From a virus, in the IMG/VR virus record IMGVR_UViG_3300015263_000962, positions 1-64,000 of that record: a stretch of 64,000 bases of DNA; one strand, 5' to 3'. The notes under the pieces are model-generated. The model was not told the DNA's origin and did no database searches. It saw nothing but the letters and a program-made list of their open reading frames with translations. The position numbers and the translations under genes were made by a program. Below are positions 1,947-11,420 of this stretch, piece after piece. Every line of letters begins with the position of its first letter. Position 1 is the stretch's first letter.

Positions 1947-1975
1947 TTGCTTTTTGACGAACCTTGCGATACCAT
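1947..1975 (+). promoter_or_regulatory. sigma70-type promoter for the radical SAM gene
   Basis: TTGCTT-17 nt-TACCAT, followed by AAGGAGG and ATG at 2003. Confidence 0.55.
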
Positions 1976-2002
1976 TCGTGTCCTGTATCGCAAGGAGGCG
2001 TC

Positions 2003-3445
2003 ATGCAGATTTTCAACGTGCGGTTCGGGCTGGCGACCAATTCTTCTTCCAGCCATTCTCTGATTTTCCTCAATGAAGGAGTTCAACCGGAGGACTACCA
2101 TGCAGACGGTGAGTTCGGTTGGGGACACTTCACTGCGACCAGCGAAACTGCCAAGTTGCGATATTTGGCCGTCCTGCTTCGAGATCGCCTGAGTTGGGAG
2201 CTTCCCGACCATATTGCCCAGCTTGTCATTCGTGACTGGGTAGGCGACATTGAGCGAGATGCAGATGACTACATCGATCATCAGTCGCACTACTTCTTGC
2301 CGTCAGAATTCGGCACCAATCTGCCCGACAAGCAGTTCTTCGAGGCGATGAAGGAATACTTCCTTCAGCCCCGATTGGCGATTCTTGGTGGCAATGACAA
2401 CACCGAGTACAGCCATCCGTTGTTGAATGGTGACGGATTCAATCTGCCTGTGCCGCAGGACTGCGGCTATCGTAACAAGTTCACTTGCCGCTACGATGAG
2501 CAGTACAATTTTTGGACTATCTTCGAGGAGGAAACTGGAACAAAGGTCCGATTCCGCTTCTCACACGAACCAAAGGATATGGTTCCAGAGAAGGCCACAG
2601 CCCCAGAGTTGGTTGACATCAAGATCACCAATTTCTGCCCCTTCGCCTGCGACTTCTGTTACCAGTCGTCTACCCTAAAAGGCTTGCACGCCGACATGGG
2701 TTACGAGTTGTATGATGTCCTGAAGGAACTCAAGGTCTTCGAAGTGGCTTTGGGTGGCGGCGAGCCTACGTTGCACCCGAGCTTCGTGAATATCCTTTCG
2801 AGCTTCCGGGATCACGGCATTGTGCCCAACTTCACCACGAGAAACCTTGGTTGGCTCAGAAAGCCGAAGCTGGCTGCCGACATCATGGAGAAGTGCGGAG
2901 CATTTGCTTTCTCGGCGGGGAATGAGAAGGAGATTCAGGAACTTCGAACTTTAGTGGATCACAACGAGATCTCTCACAATCGAGTCAACATCCATTTTGT
3001 GATGGGGACGATTGACAGCAAATACACGTTCAACCGGTTGTTGAAGCAATGTCACGACTGCGGTTTTCGTGCAACACTGCTGGGATACAAGCCAGTTGGG
3101 TTCGGGGAGAACTTCAACCCCGCAAGTTACAACTGGTGGTTGAACGAGGTTAAGGAACTCAAAGAGGATCATCGCTGCCCCAACATTGCGGTGGACACCG
3201 TGCTGGCGGCTCAGTACGAGCAAGAGATTTTGGCGGCAGATGTTCCAAGCTACCTGTTCAGCACCAAAGATGGCAACTTCTCGTGCTACATTGACATGGT
3301 AGAGCAGAAGGTTGGGCCGTCTTCATACTGCGACCCATCAGAGATGATTCCGTTGGAGCAGGAGATTCCTGAAGATCAACGTGAGGGATGGCGTCGGTAT
3401 CGAGAGATGAGTGATGTCATCAAGGACGCTTTCGCATCTTTTTGA
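2003..3445 (+). CDS. radical SAM protein with N-terminal TNSSS-motif domain
   Basis: CPFACDFC (CxxxCxxC), ALGGGEPTLHP and PNFTT motifs; N-terminal RFGLATNSSSSHS. Confidence 0.9.
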   Translation: MQIFNVRFGLATNSSSSHSLIFLNEGVQPEDYHADGEFGWGHFTATSETAKLRYLAVLLRDRLSWELPDHIAQLVIRDWVGDIERDADDYIDHQSHYFLPSEFGTNLPDKQFFEAMKEYFLQPRLAILGGNDNTEYSHPLLNGDGFNLPVPQDCGYRNKFTCRYDEQYNFWTIFEEETGTKVRFRFSHEPKDMVPEKATAPELVDIKITNFCPFACDFCYQSSTLKGLHADMGYELYDVLKELKVFEVALGGGEPTLHPSFVNILSSFRDHGIVPNFTTRNLGWLRKPKLAADIMEKCGAFAFSAGNEKEIQELRTLVDHNEISHNRVNIHFVMGTIDSKYTFNRLLKQCHDCGFRATLLGYKPVGFGENFNPASYNWWLNEVKELKEDHRCPNIAVDTVLAAQYEQEILAADVPSYLFSTKDGNFSCYIDMVEQKVGPSSYCDPSEMIPLEQEIPEDQREGWRRYREMSDVIKDAFASF

Positions 3446-3614
3446 GGAAGCGTTTCTTTCCCAAGAACAATTTGTTCGCAAGCTCAGAGTCGGGTACTGG
3501 CCTCGAAAGCCACCCGGCTCTTTTTAATCCATTCTCATCAGGGTCGGTCTGGTTCCCAAGCTCCCCCGCCCCTGCGGCTGCGTCTTCATTTTGTAGCCAT
3601 TCTTTGAACCTCAT
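3420..3614 (-). CDS. small protein with capsid-targeting-like N-terminus (MRFKEWLQNE)
   Basis: N-terminus resembles the T4 internal-protein targeting sequence; ATAGATA lies 4 nt upstream of the ATG. Confidence 0.6.
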   Translation of the reverse strand: MRFKEWLQNEDAAAGAGELGNQTDPDENGLKRAGWLSRPVPDSELANKLFLGKKRFLKKMRKRP

Positions 3615-3673
3615 ACTCTATCTATGTGTGAGCACGCAAAAGGGTGAAAGTTATATGCGTGCGAGGTAACAGC

Positions 3674-4423
3674 ATGGGATATTACGAAGATCTCGGTATC
3701 CCCAGAACTGCAACAGACGAAGACATCAGAAAAGCCTACCGGAAACTCGCTCGGGAACATCATCCCGACATGAATCCCGGCAATGCCAAGGAAGCGGCAG
3801 AAAAGTTCAAGATCGTTGCAGCAGCCTATGAGGTTCTGGGCGATGCCGTCAAAAAATCTGAATACGACATGAAGGGCTATGTGGGCCGACGACGGCCTGC
3901 ATCTCCACAGCCCTCTCCTACACCGCCACCGAAGAAGAAGCCGAAAACCAAAGAAGACTTCGAGGAAGAGCGGAAGAAGGAAGATCGCAAACACGGACGA
4001 TATCCCAAGGAACCCCAAGATGTTCAATGTACGTTCTTTGGTGGGCCGGGTGCAGGTCGATCCATCCTTGTACATCTCAAATTGACGCCGCAGGAAATGA
4101 AGAACGGCTGCAAGAAAAGCGTCACGATCAAGAAGCGAGACTTCTGCAACACTTGCGGCGGTGATGCCAAGGGATATTTCGTCTGCACGAAGTGTCGGGG
4201 CAAGTTTCCCTACAAGGATGTCTGTGGTTACTGCAACGGCGAGGGCGAAAAATTCATGGCTTGCCCAGACTGCAATGGCACGGGATTCGGTTCATGGATG
4301 GTTGAAGAAGTTGAATTCCGGGTCTCTCCCGGTGCTCAACCCGGTCATCAAGTCAACATCATGGGCGTCGGTGAATGTGCTCCACGAAAACCTCCCGGCA
4401 ACCTGAGAGTGGTTTTGATTTGA
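3674..4423 (+). CDS. dnaJ: DnaJ-family chaperone (J domain plus zinc finger, short C-terminus)
   Basis: YYEDLG...[17 protein letters not shown]...AYEVLGD; four CxxCxG-type repeats; PGNLRV. Confidence 0.92.
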
Positions 4424-4541: not shown

Positions 4542-4570
4542 TTTACGTCCCAAAAATTGTGCCGTAAGAT
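4542..4570 (+). promoter_or_regulatory. sigma70-type promoter for the helicase-like operon
   Basis: TTTACG-17 nt-TAAGAT in the 200-nt intergenic region. Confidence 0.5.
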
Positions 4571-4621
4571 AACAAGCGAATCGATGACCTGCGTTGGTCG
4601 TCAGCTTACCTGAAAGGAGAT

Positions 4622-6835
4622 TTGGGGAGAGACCTTGTGGCCGTCAAAACAACGTCAACAGACAAGGAGTGTCGTCGTTATTTTCGACGCCTTCAAAAAG
4701 TGTTCGACAGGGAGTGTGAAAAGCGAGGGGTTGAGTTCAAGATTGACCTGTCCGCTTATCTGGAGATGAGTCGTTATCCAGAGCGACTCAAGACTTACCT
4801 CTTCGAAGGTGACGGCTGGATTTACGACGAAACAATCATCGCTTCCATCGAGATGTCCGAACGAGTCCTGCGTGGCAAAAATGTCGGCTTGATCGGCCTC
4901 GTTCAAACCGCAAAAACCGCCGTTCAGGTGGTTGGCGGAATTGTCTCTGCCCTCGCCTACTATCTCAGAGACGGGCGACCAACGTGGCCTCTTTATCTCA
5001 CTGTGGTCGGGCAAGCCTATGTTGGTCAGTTCTCGTCGAAACTCAGAGAGATGCTGGGGTGTTTCGACAAGGCCGTCATCTGTCATCGCAGTGGAAGCAA
5101 ATGCGAAATCGGTGAGTATTTGGAGTTCCTCGTCGATTTCCGAGAAGATGCCGTCAATGCTCACATCCGCAGCCTGCGAAAAGAAATCTCCAGTGCCTCT
5201 TTCCGAAAACTGAAAAGGGCATATCGTGAGGAGTTGTCTGCGGACAAGACTTGTCCAGTCCTGCCAATCAGCCGAAAGTATGTCGAGTTCTTTCGTGCCA
5301 TCTTCAATGGTGTCCGTGATATCGAAGGTCGGTTGTTGCTGATTCGAGATGAATGTCACGCCGCTTCATCCAAGAACTCCGTCAACGACAAAATCTTCGG
5401 CGACAAAATGGTCGTCAAGAAAAACAAAGATGACATGTCTGAGGCCGAGTTCTACGATCTGCTGAACGCAGATGACGAGCCGTTTCAGATTGTCATGACT
5501 TCTGCCACCAATTGGGCAGCACTCCACTTGGATATCGTGACCATTCCGGTTGGCCCCGATTATTGCGGACTTGATTTCGCAATGTTGGGGTTGGATGAAA
5601 ATGGGGATGACATCTGGACCACAATTGCCACAGGAGCCAACTCCAAAGGGACTCGACTGCCCAAAATCGACTCTTTTGAGTCCATCGGGAAGTTGGTCGG
5701 ATATCCGACATTTCGTTGGTTGCGACCAAGTTGGTATGACGATGCTGGATCTTTTGCAAAGGCACGGGATCGAATCTCTGACTTGTATGAAAACTTCGAC
5801 TCATGGGATGATTACCGGGAGGAAATGCAACAGGGTCTCGCTGCGGTGCTCAATTACTGCTACACCGAAAACCCGCAGAATGGGAATGGTGTGCTGGTTC
5901 GCTTCAAGAGCGACAACATCTGCACCGACGCCTTGATCAAGGATATTCGTCCTTATCTCCATGAGGATCTTCGAAGAAAAATCGTCAAGGGATACGACTG
6001 TGAATACGACACCGTGTCCGAGTTGCTTCAAGACAATCACATCGACCATGAAAAAGATTTTTACATTGTGTTCGTGACGGCCAAAGGTCGCATGTCGGAC
6101 ACCTATCCGGTCTCTTGCACTTATGGCCTCGACTGTTGTTTTTCGACCGACACGCTCACAGCTTTGCTGCAAGGCGTTTTGGGGAGAATGAGCGGATACC
6201 ACAAAAACCCGATGGTCATTCTGTCCGAAGCCAACGTGAAGATGGTCACAGATTTCATCGAAGGCCGTTACAAACCACACGGAAAGTTGTCGAAAGACGC
6301 AAAAAAGAATTCCCGTCGAGCCTATCGCTTTGATCGTCGCTCCACCAATCATATCAAATTCATGTCCGATCTGTTTAGCGATCTCCAGAACTGGGTTGAA
6401 ACACTTCAATCCAGAGATCAGCCAGTCAGAAAAGACGGCAAGATCGTCGGTCATGTGAAGACCATCGAGGCAGGCCCAGACTCCACTGGCTTCTGGGAAG
6501 CATTGATGCCGTACTTTGAGAGGATGAATAGTGACCTCCCCAAGATTGTCTCTGGGGCCACGTCCAAGGATCGCTTGTTGGGGCCGCAGGAGTGTGCGCC
6601 GAGAGGAATTCAATATCGCCTCAATGCAAATGGATGGCCCGTCGCCACGGTGAGAACGGAAGGCAAAGGTCTGAGTACCAAATTCGGTGGTCGTGGTGGC
6701 GAGAAAGAGTACATGGTTGTGCTCAGAATCACAGAGCGATACAGACAGCCCTTCATCCTTGGCTTCGACTTGCTCAAAGTCACTGATGGGGATGGAATCC
6801 AAACCAACGAAAGCGTATCGAGCAAAATCCGATGA
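4622..6835 (+). CDS. SF2 helicase-like / Z1-related ATPase (start may be GTG at 4637)
   Basis: GLIGLVQTAKT (variant of GxVQSGKT Walker A), IRDECH (DExH), TSAT (motif III), LLQGVLGRMSGY (motif VI-like). Confidence 0.7.
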   Translation: MGRDLVAVKTTSTDKECRRYFRRLQKVFDRECEKRGVEFKIDLSAYLEMSRYPERLKTYLFEGDGWIYDETIIASIEMSERVLRGKNVGLIGLVQTAKTAVQVVGGIVSALAYYLRDGRPTWPLYLTVVGQAYVGQFSSKLREMLGCFDKAVICHRSGSKCEIGEYLEFLVDFREDAVNAHIRSLRKEISSASFRKLKRAYREELSADKTCPVLPISRKYVEFFRAIFNGVRDIEGRLLLIRDECHAASSKNSVNDKIFGDKMVVKKNKDDMSEAEFYDLLNADDEPFQIVMTSATNWAALHLDIVTIPVGPDYCGLDFAMLGLDENGDDIWTTIATGANSKGTRLPKIDSFESIGKLVGYPTFRWLRPSWYDDAGSFAKARDRISDLYENFDSWDDYREEMQQGLAAVLNYCYTENPQNGNGVLVRFKSDNICTDALIKDIRPYLHEDLRRKIVKGYDCEYDTVSELLQDNHIDHEKDFYIVFVTAKGRMSDTYPVSCTYGLDCCFSTDTLTALLQGVLGRMSGYHKNPMVILSEANVKMVTDFIEGRYKPHGKLSKDAKKNSRRAYRFDRRSTNHIKFMSDLFSDLQNWVETLQSRDQPVRKDGKIVGHVKTIEAGPDSTGFWEALMPYFERMNSDLPKIVSGATSKDRLLGPQECAPRGIQYRLNANGWPVATVRTEGKGLSTKFGGRGGEKEYMVVLRITERYRQPFILGFDLLKVTDGDGIQTNESVSSKIR

Positions 6836-7806
6836 AGGTCAAAAAATACAATAACCGCACCAAGGACTACTATCGAAAACTCAGTGTTTCGATGGATGGT
6901 CAATATCGCCGGATCATCGATCTGTGTGGCAGCCAAGCGATCTCGATCAAGCGATTGATGGAGTGGGGTTTGATTGATGCACGATGCGACGTGACTGTGA
7001 TCGAGAAGGTCACGTCGCATCTGGAAAAAATCAAATCGCATCTCAAGGGTCTCGGCCTGAAAAAGCTCTCTTATCACAAGGGGATGGTAGAGACCTGTCC
7101 GACCGATGGCGAATATGATTGGGTCAACCTCGACACAACATCCAGCTATACCCCTCGACTCAGCAGTTGGCTGGAGAATCTGAATGTGTCTGAGGGTGGC
7201 GAAGTGAATGTTTGGTTGACCAACTATCGTTCCAATCAGCAGGTCATGGAGAGTCTCTCACGGACATTTTCCTCGAAACCGGGCCGACAGGTCATCCATC
7301 AACTGATGAGGGACTGCTGGGACGGGAGGCATGAATTGCTGGATCTGGTCCCATCCAATAAAAGACATGAGGCATCTGTGACTTTGGCTGCCATCGCAAC
7401 ATCGTTTCCGAGATTCAGGTTCGATGTTGCTCCGGTCCAAACTTACATCCAGCATGTCAACAGGATGTATTTGTTTCGGTTGACCAACTTTCGGGAGAGG
7501 CCATCCCCCTTCCCCAGATTAGGCGAAATTTGGATTGATGAGGAGTATGAGGGCGAGCATTATGCGGCAAACTCGGCCCCGTTGGTTGGAGAGGCCACGC
7601 CGATCCACGAACTGTTGATTTTTGTGGCGAACGCATCATCGCACCGCCACTATCTGATTCGCAGAATGAGGCAGCATATTTCCGAGAACACTCAAGCCGG
7701 AAAGAATGCGACCATGACCAAGGCTGGGTGGAAATCCCACATCAGCAAGATTGTTTCTGATGAGGCCACGAGGCTTCGCTGTCACGAGTTGATTGATCAA
7801 GCATGA
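6832..7806 (+). CDS. SAM-dependent methyltransferase-fold protein with C-terminal helical domain
   Basis: IIDLCG, VTVIEK and YDWVNLD spaced like Rossmann MTase strands 1, 2 and 4; ATGA overlap with the upstream gene. Confidence 0.5.
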   Translation: MKVKKYNNRTKDYYRKLSVSMDGQYRRIIDLCGSQAISIKRLMEWGLIDARCDVTVIEKVTSHLEKIKSHLKGLGLKKLSYHKGMVETCPTDGEYDWVNLDTTSSYTPRLSSWLENLNVSEGGEVNVWLTNYRSNQQVMESLSRTFSSKPGRQVIHQLMRDCWDGRHELLDLVPSNKRHEASVTLAAIATSFPRFRFDVAPVQTYIQHVNRMYLFRLTNFRERPSPFPRLGEIWIDEEYEGEHYAANSAPLVGEATPIHELLIFVANASSHRHYLIRRMRQHISENTQAGKNATMTKAGWKSHISKIVSDEATRLRCHELIDQA

Positions 7807-7817
7807 GGAGAACCGAA

Positions 7818-7991
7818 ATGAGCGTTTCTGTTTCTGAGGCCATTTTCAAGGCCAAGACGCCGGGACAAAAAGCGGCAGCAACCAAAAGGTTGAATGCCTA
7901 TGTCGCCGAACAAGTCGCCGAAGGAAAAGAAGAGAAGTGGGTGCGTGCAGGAGTCGCCGCAGCAGTCACTCGACTGAGAAAAGCGGGCTGA
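7818..7991 (+). CDS. 57-aa basic helical protein, paralog of the C-terminal domain of the upstream gene
   Basis: GAGGAG SD; KRLNAYVAEQVAEGK..RAG aligns with RRMRQHISENTQAGK..KAG. Confidence 0.75.
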   Translation: MSVSVSEAIFKAKTPGQKAAATKRLNAYVAEQVAEGKEEKWVRAGVAAAVTRLRKAG

Positions 7992-8013
7992 ATTCCCAAT
8001 CGGCCACATCTCT

Positions 8014-8045
8014 AAGAAAGCCTGAGCGAAAGCTCAGGCTTTCTT
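8014..8045. terminator. bidirectional intrinsic terminator
   Basis: Perfect 14-bp stem AAGAAAGCCTGAGC-GAAA-GCTCAGGCTTTCTT between convergent genes. Confidence 0.85.
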
Positions 8046-8840
8046 TATCCACAAGCATTCTTGCATTGTTTCTTTTGTTGGCTTTTGAGATGAGTGATTG
8101 GCGGTTTCTTTGATGATCGCAGTCCACCCCGAATACAGCTTTTCGTAAAGCTCAGAAGGGTATCCGCTCAGAACAACGCTTCCCTTGATCTCACGACAAA
8201 GTTCTGCCAGTTTGATGTGGTCTTCCTCGGATGACTCGTGCCAATACATGTTGGTTGAAAATCTGGTGGAGTGAAGATACGGTGGGTCTAAGTAGAACAG
8301 TGTGTCTTCACTGTCATATCTTTCTATCACATCGAGTGCGTTTTCGTTGAGAATCTCGACGCCTTGAAGCCTAGCCGACAGCCATTCCAAATTTTGTAAT
8401 GAGCTATTCCAGCAATGAACTTCTGCTGGGCCGGTACTGTATGTCCTGTTGGACCAACAAAAAGTTCCACATGTGCCGCTTCTCGACATCCGGCGAGTCA
8501 CATAGGCAGCAACCGCTTTGTCAAGATCGCTCAGTTTTTGGTACTTTTCTTCCGACAGGTACAATTCTCGATAGAACTTATATTCCTGTTCGCAGTATTG
8601 AATGCCTCTGAGTGCTTCGATGAGTCCGTCTGGGTTATCTCTAGCAACTCTCATCAAGTTGACAATGGTGTGCTCAATGTCGTTGTAAACTTCCTTGTCT
8701 GACCTATTTTTGTTGACAAGAACGGATGCGGCTCCTCCAAATGGTTCACAGTAAATCTTGTGATTTGGAAGATGTTCCAAAATCCATTTGAAGAGTCTCC
8801 CCTTTCCACCATGGTACTTAACGATTGGCCTGATGTTCAT
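8034..8840 (-). CDS. DNA adenine methyltransferase (Dam/D12 class)
   Basis: KYHGGK, YCEPFGGAASV, YND, FYLDPPY, VVLSGY and ECLW motifs. Confidence 0.95.
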   Translation of the reverse strand: MNIRPIVKYHGGKGRLFKWILEHLPNHKIYCEPFGGAASVLVNKNRSDKEVYNDIEHTIVNLMRVARDNPDGLIEALRGIQYCEQEYKFYRELYLSEEKYQKLSDLDKAVAAYVTRRMSRSGTCGTFCWSNRTYSTGPAEVHCWNSSLQNLEWLSARLQGVEILNENALDVIERYDSEDTLFYLDPPYLHSTRFSTNMYWHESSEEDHIKLAELCREIKGSVVLSGYPSELYEKLYSGWTAIIKETANHSSQKPTKETMQECLWIKKA

Positions 8841-9426: not shown

Positions 9427-9978
9427 ATGCTATACAATTTCGAGCATCAGGTATTGGTTGGAACCATTTTGGGCGGTTCCTCTTTGGTGAAACCACCAAA
9501 GGGCAAGAACTACTACTTGTCCATGCGTAGCAAGAACGAGTTGTGGCTGAAATACAAGATGGCAGAAATGCCCAATTTCTTTAAGAACCCCAAGATACAC
9601 CAGTATGGAAGCACAAACCGCTGCAACTCTTCATGTTGCGGCACGCTTACTGAGATTCATGACATTTTGTATCAAGGAAGCAAGCGGCACGTCTCAATGG
9701 AGATTCTGGATAGCTTGCAGGACATCGCTCTGGCTGTATGGTTTCTGGATGGGGGCAGCAAGACGGGACGTGATCGAAAGAACGCCTACATCAATACCAC
9801 GAAGTTCGGGGAGGCTGGTACAAAAATTGTATTGAGGTATTTCAACGAGATCGGGATGCCGTGCAACCTGAACCGAGATGGAAGTCGGCTCAAAGTGCTT
9901 TTCACAGTCGAAGGAACATTGGAATTTTTCAAGGTGACTGCACACCGTTTCCCGACATTCATGTACAATCGCCTTTAG
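9427..9978 (+). CDS. free-standing LAGLIDADG homing-endonuclease-like protein, catalytic motifs degenerate
   Basis: QVLVGTILGGSSL and LAVWFLDGGS double-motif pattern; MYNRL C-terminus. Confidence 0.8.
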   Translation: MLYNFEHQVLVGTILGGSSLVKPPKGKNYYLSMRSKNELWLKYKMAEMPNFFKNPKIHQYGSTNRCNSSCCGTLTEIHDILYQGSKRHVSMEILDSLQDIALAVWFLDGGSKTGRDRKNAYINTTKFGEAGTKIVLRYFNEIGMPCNLNRDGSRLKVLFTVEGTLEFFKVTAHRFPTFMYNRL

Positions 9979-10024: not shown

Positions 10025-10624
10025 TTAGTCGTTGTTGATGATCTTCGATTGACTCTTGACCCAAGCCTGAAACGCTTTCATTGTGTTTTCATCAAGAGGA
10101 GGCATTGTCTCCTCGGCTACAGGTTCTTCTGCCACTGGTTCCTCGACAACGGGTTCTGCCACTGGTTCTTCAACCACTGGCTCTTCGATGACGGGTTCCT
10201 CGACCGCTGGTTCCTCGACAACGGGTTCTGCCACTGGTTCTTCAACCACTGGCTCTTCGATGACGGGTTCTTCCACCACAGGCTCGACGACAGGTTCTTC
10301 TTCGACGACGGGCTCTTCCACCACGGGTTCTTCAACCACTGGTTCCTCGACGATTGGTTCCTCGACAACAGGCTCAACCACTGGTTCTTCAACCACTGGC
10401 TCCTCGATGACGGGTTCCTCAACGACAGGCTCTTCCACCACGGGTTCTTCAACCACAACTGGTTCCACGACGACAGGTTCTTCGATAACCGGTTCTTCGA
10501 TCACAGGTTCTTCTGTGATAACGGGTTCTTCAACCACCGGCTCGTCAACGACGACGGGTTCGGGTTTGTGCGGCTTTGGCTTATGGTGAGGCACAGGCCG
10601 CTTGCGTCCACGAAATCTTCCCAT
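10025..10624 (-). CDS. EEPVV-repeat protein with basic N-terminus
   Basis: GGAG SD; [10 protein letters not shown] then about 30 EEPV[VIA] pentapeptides and a short C-terminal helix. Confidence 0.8.
10110..10555 (-). repeat. 15-bp coding tandem repeat (EEPVV)
   Basis: Degenerate GAAGA[AG]CCNGTNGT[TC] units. Confidence 0.9.
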
Positions 10625-10634
10625 GTCAAACTCC

Positions 10635-11420
10635 TTACCCTACGACGGGTGGTTCTTCATCGGCGACGGGTTCTTCAACCACAGGCTCTTCGGCCACGGG
10701 TTCCTCGACGACCGGTTCTTCGATAACTGGTTCCTCGACGACGACAGGATCTTCCACCACAGGCTCTTCAACCACTGGTTCCTCGGCGACGGGTTCTTCA
10801 ATGACCGGTTCTTCGATGACAGGTTCTTCAACCACAGGCTCTTCGATAACCGGCTCTTCAACCACAGGCTCTTCGGCCACGGGTTCTTCAATGACCGGCT
10901 CTTCGATGACGGGTTCTTCAACCACAGGCTCTTCGACGACCGGTTCTTCAACAACGACAGGCTCCTCGTACAGCACAACGTCAGCGATGACAGGTGCAGC
11001 AGGAGCGGCTGGCGGAACGATGTCGATTACGACGAAGTGAAGATGATCACCCTCGACCGAACGGTTGCCAGCGTCGTCAATATCAATCATGAAAATGTCA
11101 ACGTCCGAGTTCTCTTCGAGAACCAACTCATAATGAGTCATAGTGACATCCATGATTTCGTACATGCTTTCCACGCCATTGATCATGACGTGTAGTTCAC
11201 GAGACACAACGTCATCGGCACCCAGTGCGGGCAAGCCGATCTTGTAAGTGTACTTGTCCATCAAACCTCCAGAAATGTTTAAGATGGTTGGCTTCTGTGG
11301 CTTTAGCGGCCCCCCGTCGTTACGAACGACTGGAGGTACATCCTTGTAGGCATACCAGATCAAAATCGTCTGGATGGCTATGTGGAGAAGACATGCTGCG
11401 ACCAAAACTAAAACCGACAT
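10635..11420 (-). CDS. membrane-anchored protein: TM helix, Ig/Fn3-like domain and EEPVV repeats (alternative start 11261)
   Basis: Hydrophobic N-terminus; DIDDAGNRS...PPAAPAAP; about 20 EEPVV units; ATAAATA 5 nt before ATG 11420; GGAGG before ATG 11261. Confidence 0.75.
10645..10966 (-). repeat. 15-bp coding tandem repeat (EEPVV)
   Basis: Same unit as in the neighbouring gene. Confidence 0.9.

What the first reader, a model, noticed from the sequence alone, without database searches (positions are those of the whole stretch)
4542..8840. SF2/Z1-like helicase, MTase-fold protein and free copy of its C-terminal domain, converging on a Dam-type methylase
Seen: a self-contained operon with a sigma70-type promoter (4542-4570), an ATGA overlap and a strong terminator (8014-8045). 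Gene 1 has helicase motifs resembling the restriction-associated Z1 family, but Walker A reads AKT instead of GKT. Gene 2 has a Rossmann MTase pattern without DPPY or PC motifs. Gene 3 (57 aa) aligns without gaps to the end of gene 2: KRLNAYVAEQVAEGKEEKWVRAGVAAAVTRL vs RRMRQHISENTQAGKNATMTKAGWKSHISKI. Inference: an uncharacterised phage-borne restriction-like, modification or SAM-sensing module in which the small protein titrates or regulates its partner. Any link to the Dam-type gene is positional only.
Basis: partly seen in the sequence, partly recalled or inferred. Interest (0 to 1): 0.72.

Follow-up and report, generated by a model that had tools for sequence, protein, structure and literature searches.

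The report
Phage Z1-like motor, methylase-fold partner, tail copy
A fragment of a huge marine-sediment phage carries a conserved four-gene cassette (a DNA motor related to restriction-enzyme motors, a new methyltransferase-fold enzyme, a free copy of that enzyme's tail, and a Dam methylase) that looks like a restriction-modification-type module of a kind not yet catalogued or tested.

Summary
Genes 1-3 (4637-6835, 6832-7806, 7818-7991, +) and a convergent D12/Dam methylase (8034-8840, -) meet at a strong hairpin (-24.8 kcal/mol). The proposed sigma70 promoter is weak (8/12) and unsupported. Gene 1 folds as an SF2 two-RecA motor (pLDDT 90.5). It belongs to an unnamed family (215 clusters) with no Pfam, PADLOC or NCBIfam model, closest to the DEAD-Z1 motors of CglI-type restriction enzymes: same rare VQSxKT Walker A and GRxxGY motif VI, and higher profile scores than other SF2 proteins. 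Bacterial members sit beside Dcm (21/27 loci) and Vsr (19/27), or beside nucleases. "AKT" is normal family variation. Gene 2 has a class I SAM-methyltransferase fold (Z 14) with cofactor-binding motifs kept, an unusual catalytic loop, and a four-helix tail. Gene 3 is a significant free copy of that tail (leave-one-out HMM E 6e-9). The motor and gene 2 travel together in at least eight lineages. All four genes move as a block in a second phage; in a third genome the Dam homologue is distant. No nuclease was found. Best reading (about 0.4): a restriction-modification-derived, SAM-dependent motor module. A methylation-only role is the main rival. It is a new variant of a known kind.

The parts
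4542..4570 (+). Proposed sigma70-like promoter (TTTACG, 17 nt, TAAGAT); weak and unsupported
   Evidence: 8/12 consensus matches read. Not reported by the promoter scan, and promoter-like sites in the region are not above the shuffle expectation.
4637..6835 (+). Gene 1: 732-aa (737 aa from TTG 4622) SF2 helicase-like motor of an unnamed Z1-like family. Motifs: GLVQTAKT, DECH, SATNW, Y-motif YCGLDF, RMSD, QGVLGRMSGY. Extra N-terminal helices, an insertion at about residues 295-410, and an alpha/beta C-terminal domain at about 555-732
   Evidence: AF2 pLDDT 90.5. Generic SF2 matches at Z up to 15. 215 related clusters. Affinity to Z1. No Pfam, PHROG, NCBIfam or PADLOC family.
6832..7806 (+). Gene 2: 324-aa protein. 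Class I SAM-methyltransferase fold at residues 1-223 (motif I IIDLCG, acidic E58 after beta2, beta4 YDWVNLDTTSS, NVWLTNYR), plus a four-helix tail at 258-323 carrying the conserved KAGWKS motif
   Evidence: AF2 pLDDT 88. VIA Z 14.1, with all 50 top rows methyltransferases. Foldseek 6e-7. Ten-member family alignment. ATGA overlap with gene 1.
7818..7991 (+). Gene 3: 57-aa basic protein, a free copy of helices 1-3 of the gene 2 tail; GAGGAG ribosome-binding site at 7806-7811
   Evidence: 74% identical to the L002 homologue. hhalign 93%, E 3.5e-7. Leave-one-out HMM E 5.7e-9 against a best shuffle of 11.7 bits.
8014..8045 (.). Hairpin between the convergent genes: 14-bp stem with GAAA loop. The inner GC-rich 8-bp stem is followed by TTTCTTTAT on the + strand. 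It overlaps the Dam stop codon
   Evidence: -24.8 kcal/mol, z -7.1; sequence.
8034..8840 (-). D12-class (Dam-type) N6-adenine DNA methyltransferase with DPPY; probable start at ATG 8840 (the ORF is open to 8873)
   Evidence: Pfam PF02086 7.6e-33. phrog_56 6.5e-70. 56% identical to the convergent gene at the same position in L002.

Best explanation
Genes 1-3 and the convergent Dam gene form one conserved cassette of restriction-modification ancestry carried by huge phages. Gene 1 is an ATP-driven SF2 DNA motor from an unnamed sister family of the DEAD-Z1 motors (CglI/NgoAVII, MORC-Z1/Mza-type systems). Gene 2, translationally coupled to it, is a SAM-dependent methyltransferase-fold enzyme with a non-canonical catalytic loop and a helical tail. 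Gene 3 is a free copy of that tail. The following steps are inferred. Gene 2 docks on the motor through its tail. The resulting complex scans DNA using ATP and acts on DNA in a SAM-dependent way, most likely against DNA that lacks the phage's own Dam mark (host or rival-phage DNA). Dam marks the phage genome as self. Gene 3 competes with or caps the tail interface and so limits or times assembly. What is shown: the folds, the motifs, the family kinship, the gene linkage and the paralogy. What is not shown: complex formation, DNA as the substrate, the direction of the effect and the effector chemistry. No nuclease was found.
For: Motor: SF2 fold. It shares the rare VQSGKT Walker A and GRxxGY motif VI with Z1 proteins; PMC5861437 calls the Gly-to-Gln Walker A uncommon in SF1/SF2. 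hhalign to Z1 gives 89% and 96%. Z1 scores (29-49) exceed those of 12 ResIII-type SF2 controls (15-26). Context: bacterial members lie next to Dcm in 21/27 loci and Vsr in 19/27 loci, divergent or convergent, across several phyla and on mobile islands. Two loci add an Eco29kI-like endonuclease; others have DEDD and PD-(D/E)xK nucleases instead. This is the context described for Z1 helicases in PMC2292703. Cassette: L002 keeps all four genes in the same order and orientation, and they are the only genes it shares with the window. Gene 2: methyltransferase fold, with the motif I Asp and the acidic residue after beta2 kept in 10/10 members and invariant residues clustered at beta4/beta5. Gene 3: significant tail paralogue and the most conserved gene of the set, at 74%.
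Against: No nuclease domain or conserved nuclease-like triad is visible in genes 1-3, so a cleavage mechanism is unsupported. If gene 2 is an active methylase it could itself supply self-marking, which would make Dam redundant. In LR756511 the Dam homologue is 417 kb from the pair, and no gene 3 is present there. Six of 27 bacterial loci lack a Dcm within 6 kb. The window's gene 2 has Thr where 9 of 10 relatives have Cys in the catalytic loop. The Pfam Z1 and PADLOC Mza models do not match. DNA context was available for only three phage lineages.
Confidence: 0.4

Rival explanations
1. Modification only. The motor carries or activates gene 2 as a DNA methyltransferase that marks the phage's own large genome, alongside Dam, to escape host restriction. 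This would be functionally like the helicase-plus-methylase antirestriction protein DarB of phage P1, or like ATPase-activated methylation in BREX-type systems. Gene 3 would be an assembly factor or regulator.
For: No nuclease is present in the cassette. There are two methyltransferase-fold genes. The putative active-site residues of gene 2 are strongly conserved, as expected of a working enzyme. The phage shows extreme restriction-site avoidance (CGCG 0 observed against 123 expected), so restriction pressure is evidently strong. Orphan methylases are common in phages (121 phage records hold relatives of this Dam).
Against: The motor's nearest characterised relatives, Z1 motors, are described on the restriction or defence side rather than as methylation helpers. 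Bacterial members sit with Dcm-Vsr or with nucleases and never with a gene 2 homologue. Gene 2 lacks the DPPY and PC motifs of known DNA methylases.
Confidence: 0.3
2. RNA-directed pair: a DExH RNA helicase working with an RNA (tRNA or rRNA) methyltransferase, with Dam merely adjacent.
For: The best structural neighbours of gene 2 include RNA methyltransferases (RsmD-like Rv2966c Z 13.9; Trm1 Z 13.8 with the longest aligned stretch, 191 residues; TYW2, TrmK, RlmO). The distant L031 homologue reads LDFIGS in beta4, which resembles, from memory, the Trm1 DLDPFGS loop. Top fold hits of gene 1 include DEAH/RHA RNA helicases.
Against: These structural matches are generic for the folds; Z values are tied across dozens of unrelated methyltransferases and helicases. 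The specific sequence kinship of the motor is to DNA restriction motors, and its relatives sit with DNA methylases, Vsr and DNases. Dam travels with the cassette in L002.
Confidence: 0.1
3. No joint function: unrelated accessory genes that merely lie side by side.
For: None beyond the lack of experimental data. Dam is unlinked in LR756511.
Against: ATGA overlap between genes 1 and 2. The pair recurs down to 25% identity in at least eight lineages. The four-gene block is kept while its flanks differ.
Confidence: 0.03

Closest known systems
H subunit (DEAD-Z1 motor) of the ATP-dependent restriction enzymes CglI and NgoAVII (PMC5861437, PMC4267653)
   Same: SF2 two-RecA motor with the unusual Gln-containing Walker A (VQSGKT), a GRxxGY-type motif VI, a Y-motif after motif III and an extra C-terminal domain. 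It is encoded next to a DNA methylase and works with a separately encoded partner protein.
   Different: The Pfam Z1 model does not match. Motif VI has two more residues between Gln and Gly-Arg (QGVLGR against QMGR). The box is DExH, not DEAD. The partner is a methyltransferase-fold protein rather than a PLD-nuclease/B3 protein. The methylase is Dam-type, not m5C. The host is a phage.
MORC/paraMORC-Z1 helicase-nuclease-Dcm-Vsr operons (Iyer, Abhiman and Aravind 2008, PMC2292703) and the related Mza system as catalogued in PADLOC
   Same: A Z1-type motor linked to a cytosine methylase and Vsr on mobile islands. Bacterial members of the present motor family have the same Dcm-Vsr neighbours.
   Different: No GHKL/MORC ATPase, RE-fold nuclease or AIPR gene accompanies the present family. 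No PADLOC model matches the window protein or 60 relatives.
Type III restriction-modification (Res + Mod), for example EcoP1I of phage P1 (from my own knowledge)
   Same: A phage-borne pairing of an SF2 motor subunit with a SAM-dependent methyltransferase subunit encoded in one operon.
   Different: Res carries a PD-(D/E)xK nuclease and Mod carries a DPPY motif; neither is present here. The gene order is reversed. There is an additional separate Dam and a tail-copy gene.
DarB antirestriction protein of phage P1 (methylase and helicase domains in one giant protein; from my own knowledge)
   Same: A phage-encoded combination of methyltransferase and DExH helicase modules, without a nuclease.
   Different: DarB is a single virion-packaged protein of about 2,255 aa. 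No sequence relationship was detected here, and genes 1-3 lack the N-terminal leader that this phage group puts on capsid-targeted proteins.
Small class I N-methyltransferases of RNA (RsmD-like, Trm1, Trm5/TYW2) and NodS
   Same: Best structural neighbours of the gene 2 catalytic domain (Z 13-14, rmsd 2.9-3.4 A over 150-190 residues). Same strand order, motif I and acidic residue after beta2.
   Different: Only 10-16% identity, with no sequence-family match. The catalytic loop is NLDT(C/T)SS rather than DPP(F/Y) or DPFG. Gene 2 has a unique four-helix tail and is coupled to a DNA-motor gene.

Membership tests
DEAD-Z1 helicase-like motors (Pfam Z1 PF10593; H.CglI) | Unusual Walker A with Gln replacing the first Gly of GxGKT | tested here: met
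   The window reads GLVQTAKT and the family consensus is GLxQS[AGSC]KT. Eight Z1 proteins fetched here read GxVQSGKT. The feature is described in PMC5861437.
DEAD-Z1 helicase-like motors (Pfam Z1 PF10593; H.CglI) | Short QxxR motif VI (DThhQxuRhFG signature) | tested here: not met
   The window has TALLQGVLGRMSGY. GRxxGY is shared, but Gln is two residues further from Gly-Arg than in Z1 (DTLMQMGRWFGYR).
DEAD-Z1 helicase-like motors (Pfam Z1 PF10593; H.CglI) | Match to the Pfam Z1 model | tested here: not met
   No hit at E <= 0.1 for gene 1. None among 60 relatives at E <= 0.01. None in the whole virus record.
DEAD-Z1 helicase-like motors (Pfam Z1 PF10593; H.CglI) | Profile similarity to Z1 proteins above that to other SF2 helicases | tested here: met
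   hhalign gives 89% (E 2e-6) and 96% (E 2e-9), collinear. Single-sequence scores are 29-49 for Z1 against 15-26 for 12 ResIII-type controls.
DEAD-Z1 helicase-like motors (Pfam Z1 PF10593; H.CglI) | Genomic linkage to a DNA methylase (often with Vsr) and a nuclease partner | tested here: inconclusive
   Methylase linkage is met: Dcm in 21/27 and Vsr in 19/27 bacterial loci, and Dam in the window and L002. A nuclease partner is absent from the phage cassette and present only in some bacterial loci.
DEAD-Z1 helicase-like motors (Pfam Z1 PF10593; H.CglI) | ATP-dependent dsDNA translocation that activates cleavage | not testable with these tools
   This needs biochemistry.
Class I SAM-dependent methyltransferases | Seven-stranded Rossmann-like fold | tested here: met
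   Model pLDDT 88. VIA Z 14.1-12.0, with all 50 listed rows methyltransferases, covering residues 1-223. Foldseek E 6e-7.
Class I SAM-dependent methyltransferases | Motif I loop after beta1 and an acidic residue at the end of beta2 (cofactor contacts) | tested here: met
   IIDL(P/C/A)G, with D30 invariant. E/D at position 58 in 10/10 members and in the L031 homologue. Placement is by sequence and predicted secondary structure only.
Known DNA methyltransferase classes (N6A/N4C DPPY-type; C5 PC-type) | Catalytic motif IV: (D/N/S)PP(Y/F/W) or PC(Q) | tested here: not met
   Beta4 reads YDWVNLDT(C/T)SS; the distant homologue reads LDFIGS. No Pfam, NCBIfam or PDB sequence match.
Class I SAM-dependent methyltransferases | SAM binding and methyl transfer | not testable with these tools
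   This needs a binding or activity assay.
D12-class N6-adenine DNA methyltransferase (Dam) | Match to PF02086 over its full length, with the DPPY motif | tested here: met
   E 7.6e-33 over profile positions 1-249 of 253. LDPPYLHS is visible in the translation.
Type III restriction Res subunit | ResIII-type helicase plus PD-(D/E)xK nuclease domain | tested here: not met
   No ResIII Pfam hit for the window protein, and only 7 of 60 distant relatives hit it. No conserved acidic/lysine triad outside the helicase motifs.
Catalogued anti-phage defence systems (PADLOC-DB v2, including Mza) | Match to any PADLOC protein model | tested here: not met
   Only chance-level hits for genes 1-3 (E 0.007-0.04). 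0 of 60 relatives match at 1e-3.

The most novel reading that the evidence does not exclude
The cassette is a nuclease-free machine. An ATP-driven Z1-like DNA translocase carries a new type of SAM-dependent DNA-modifying enzyme along DNA. Coupling is governed by a decoy subunit (gene 3) that mimics the enzyme's docking tail. If so, it would be a new class of motor-coupled DNA modification system used by huge phages for takeover or counter-defence. Its motor family would also define an uncatalogued Dcm/Vsr-linked system in bacteria.
Probability: 0.25. Interest if true: 0.8.

Novelty: new variant of a known kind. Interest (0 to 1): 0.6.

Why it matters
This work identifies three things. First, a sizeable SF2 motor family (215 clusters at 50% identity) that no Pfam, NCBIfam or PADLOC model covers. 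It is sister to the Z1 restriction motors and is paired in bacteria with Dcm-Vsr or nucleases, which makes it a candidate new restriction/defence type. Second, a phage-specific branch in which the motor has acquired a novel methyltransferase-fold partner. Third, a rare and cleanly demonstrable case of a free-standing copy of a protein's own tail encoded next to it, which is a testable design for self-regulation by mimicry. All four proteins are small enough for direct tests in laboratory E. coli.

Tried and rejected
- DNA and pattern searches of IMG/VR found no relatives of gene 1 or gene 2. blastn against phage records found nothing. tblastn of gene 2 against phages found nothing.
- tblastn of a bacterial family member against plasmids found nothing.
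- Pfam, PHROG, NCBIfam and PADLOC gave no family for genes 1-3.
- Sequence searches of the PDB gave nothing for gene 1, its C-terminal domain, gene 2 or their family profiles.
- The weak cpSF2-GREB1 Pfam hit (E 0.09 for the window protein; best 3e-6 among relatives) was examined and set aside. It is partial, and GREB1's domain is a circularly permuted, inactive helicase.
- The idea that 'AKT' marks an inactivated P-loop was rejected, because the position varies among G, A, S and C within the family.
- A capsid-targeting leader on genes 1-3, which would suggest injected proteins like DarB or T4 internal proteins, was rejected. The MxNHWL leader seen on other genes of this phage is absent.
- No T4 late promoter TATAAATA occurs anywhere in the window.
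- BFVD structure search for gene 2 returned only generic viral methyltransferases.
Its fold therefore remains unassigned rather than new.

Full report
**Origin.** The window is bases 1-64,000 of a 76-kb IMG/VR virus record that CheckV rates about 15% complete, so it is a fragment of a very large phage. Its DNA is held in full by one marine-sediment metagenome run. Earlier notes of this scan on the same genome call it a huge T4-like phage; I did not test that.

**Anatomy**
- Gene 1 runs 4637-6835 (GTG start; a TTG at 4622 is also possible).
- Gene 2 runs 6832-7806 and overlaps the gene 1 stop by ATGA.
- Gene 3 most likely starts at ATG 7818. It has a GAGGAG ribosome-binding site six bases upstream, and its homologue in L002 begins at the equivalent residue. 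It is therefore 57 aa, and genes 2 and 3 are separated by 11 bases rather than overlapping.
- A 14-bp hairpin with a GAAA loop lies at 8014-8045. It folds at -24.8 kcal/mol (z = -7.1). Its GC-rich core is followed by a T-rich run on the + strand.
- The stop codon of the convergent D12/Dam methylase gene (8034-8840; Pfam 7.6e-33) lies inside the hairpin's 3' arm.
- The proposed promoter (TTTACG, 17 nt, TAAGAT) matches only 8 of 12 consensus positions. It is not distinguishable from chance.

**Gene 1**
- No Pfam, PHROG, NCBIfam or PADLOC model matches it.
- An exhaustive HMMER search with the window and L002 pair found 215 clusters at E <= 1e-3 and 21 at <= 1e-30.
- With 91 of these sequences as the alignment, AlphaFold gave a confident model (pLDDT 90.5, pTM 0.87).
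- The model has a two-RecA SF2 core (about residues 80-550), N-terminal helices, an insertion (about 295-410) and an alpha/beta C-terminal domain (about 555-732).
- Fold searches return only generic SF2 helicases and translocases (Z up to 15).
- Family motifs are GLxQS[AGSC]KT, RDExH, SATNW, YCGLDF, TAxxRMSDSFP and QGVLGRxCGYxK. The window's 'AKT' is therefore normal variation; several members have GKT.
- The rarer feature is the Gln in the Walker A. The study of the CglI H subunit describes this Gly-to-Gln Walker A as uncommon in SF1/SF2 and typical of DEAD-Z1 restriction motors, together with an odd motif VI and a Y-motif (PMC5861437).

**Kinship to Z1 motors.** I fetched eight Z1 (PF10593) proteins from bacterial genomes.
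- They read GxVQSGKT, DDEAD and QMGRWFGYR.
- Profile-profile comparison with them gives 89% (E 2e-6) for the phage clade and 96% (E 2e-9) for a bacterial clade. The alignment is collinear over more than 600 columns when extended greedily.
- As a control, 12 other ResIII-type SF2 proteins from the same genomes scored 15-26 against the phage-clade profile, whereas the Z1 proteins scored 29-49.
- The Z1 Pfam model itself does not match, and motif VI is two residues longer.
- I therefore read this as a sister family of Z1 and not as a member of it.

**Context of the motor family in bacteria.** A scan of one genome per species found 27 loci in Alphaproteobacteria, Myxococcota, Acidobacteriota, Gemmatimonadota and Patescibacteria.
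- Clustering the flanking ORFs showed two conserved neighbours: a C5 cytosine methylase (PF00145, 2e-51) in 21 loci and a Vsr endonuclease (PF03852, about 1e-30) in 19 loci.
- These neighbours are divergent from or convergent with the motor gene. The loci often lie beside serine recombinases or conjugative coupling proteins.
- Two loci add an Eco29kI-like endonuclease.
- Divergent loci without Dcm instead carry a DEDD exonuclease and a PD-(D/E)xK/RNase H-like protein just downstream.
- This is the neighbourhood Iyer et al. described for Z1-type helicases in predicted restriction-modification operons (PMC2292703).
- No PADLOC or NCBIfam model matches 60 members of the family.
- No gene 2 or gene 3 homologue occurs in these loci.

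**Gene 2**
- Word-based searches found nine relatives at 22-45% identity, all unnamed and from metagenomes.
- The ten-sequence alignment gave a good model (pLDDT 88).
- Residues 1-223 are a class I SAM-methyltransferase fold. VIA Z is 14.1 (NodS, rmsd 3.3 A over 165 residues), 13.9 (RsmD-like) and 13.8 (Trm1, 191 residues), and all 50 listed rows are methyltransferases. Foldseek agrees, as does the ESM Atlas model.
- The motif I Asp (IIDLxG) and the acidic residue after beta2 are kept in all ten members.
- The invariant residues cluster in beta4 (YDWVNLDTCSS) and beta5 (NVWLTxYR). This pattern fits a working enzyme better than a decayed scaffold.
- The DPPY and PC motifs of known DNA methylases are absent.
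- The window's copy has Thr where nine relatives have Cys.
- Residues 258-323 form four helices carrying the strongly conserved KAGWKS motif.

**Gene 3**
- It aligns with helices 1-3 of the gene 2 tail.
- BLASTP alone is marginal.
- hhalign of the families gives 93%, E 3.5e-7.
- A tail HMM built without the window's own gene 2 finds gene 3 at E 5.7e-9 among 1,245 six-frame ORFs of the window; 2,000 shuffles of gene 3 never exceed 11.7 bits.
- The tail HMM (all ten family members, including L002's own gene 2) finds the L002 gene 3 at E 1.1e-8.
- Gene 3 is the most conserved of the four genes: 74% identity, against 30% (motor), 40% (gene 2) and 56% (Dam).

**Linkage**
- L002/L003 (one phage, two samples) keeps motor, gene 2, gene 3 and convergent Dam in the same order. 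These are the only genes shared between 21 kb of that contig and the 64-kb window. Its flanks encode an ADP-ribosylglycohydrolase and an RNA ligase instead.
- Five further motor/gene 2 pairs are inferred from identical longest-contig lengths: 4,603; 6,381; 10,290; 42,689 and 122,790 bp.
- In the 595-kb megaphage LR756511 a 740-aa motor relative (25% identity) is followed after 25 bases by a 286-aa gene 2 relative (HMM E 1.8e-9; hhalign 89%) and then by an HNH gene. That genome has no gene 3 in the locus, and its Dam homologue (44% identity, the best in the phage collection) lies 417 kb away.
- The motor and gene 2 pair is therefore the conserved core. Gene 3 and the adjacent Dam belong to a subclade.

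**Interpretation.** The motor's kinship and the habits of its relatives point to a restriction-modification-type conflict module, with Dam as the self-marking partner. Gene 2 occupies the slot that a nuclease/recognition subunit holds in CglI. However, no nuclease is recognisable in the cassette, and gene 2 looks like an active SAM-dependent enzyme. A motor-coupled modification role is therefore a serious rival. The decoy or regulator role of gene 3 is an inference from paralogy and conservation only. I give the restriction-type reading 0.4, modification-only 0.3 and an RNA-directed pair 0.1.

**Limits**
- Only three phage contexts could be read as DNA.
- The C-terminal domain of the motor could not be searched on its own.
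- Nothing here tests activity.

Noticed in passing
window 1-64000: The tetranucleotide CGCG does not occur at all in 64 kb at 50% GC (123 expected from a second-order Markov estimate). GCGC occurs 28 times against 121 expected, and CTAG 20 against 62. GATC is not depleted (430 against 472). This looks like strong restriction-site avoidance.
   Followed up: no
window 9427-9978 (+): A LAGLIDADG homing endonuclease gene (Pfam 8e-21) lies just beyond the Dam gene. It has no counterpart in L002, so it is probably an independent insertion.
   Followed up: partly
window 1964-4423 (+): Upstream neighbours are a 493-aa radical-SAM protein (phrog_16999, 1e-35) and a DnaJ-like protein with a J domain and Cys-rich region. 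Neither is shared with L002.
   Followed up: no
window 10025-11420 (-): Two ORFs are built largely of EEPVV-type Pro/Glu/Val repeats, and every other frame across them is also open.
   Followed up: no
L004-L030 (bacterial genome loci): An uncatalogued bacterial trio of Dcm, Vsr and a roughly 780-aa Z1-like motor sits on mobile islands in several phyla. There are variants in which an Eco29kI-like endonuclease is inserted (L022, L026) or in which DEDD and PD-(D/E)xK/RNase H-like nucleases replace Dcm-Vsr (L025, L029). No PADLOC, Pfam or NCBIfam model covers the motor.
   Followed up: partly
L031 9503-10225 (+), megaphage LR756511.1: An HNH endonuclease gene directly follows the motor and gene 2-like pair, at the position that gene 3 holds in the window. 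It could be a homing element or the missing nuclease.
   Followed up: no
L002 5877-6746 and 12020-12724: In the second phage the cassette is flanked by an ADP-ribosylglycohydrolase gene and an RNA ligase gene.
   Followed up: no
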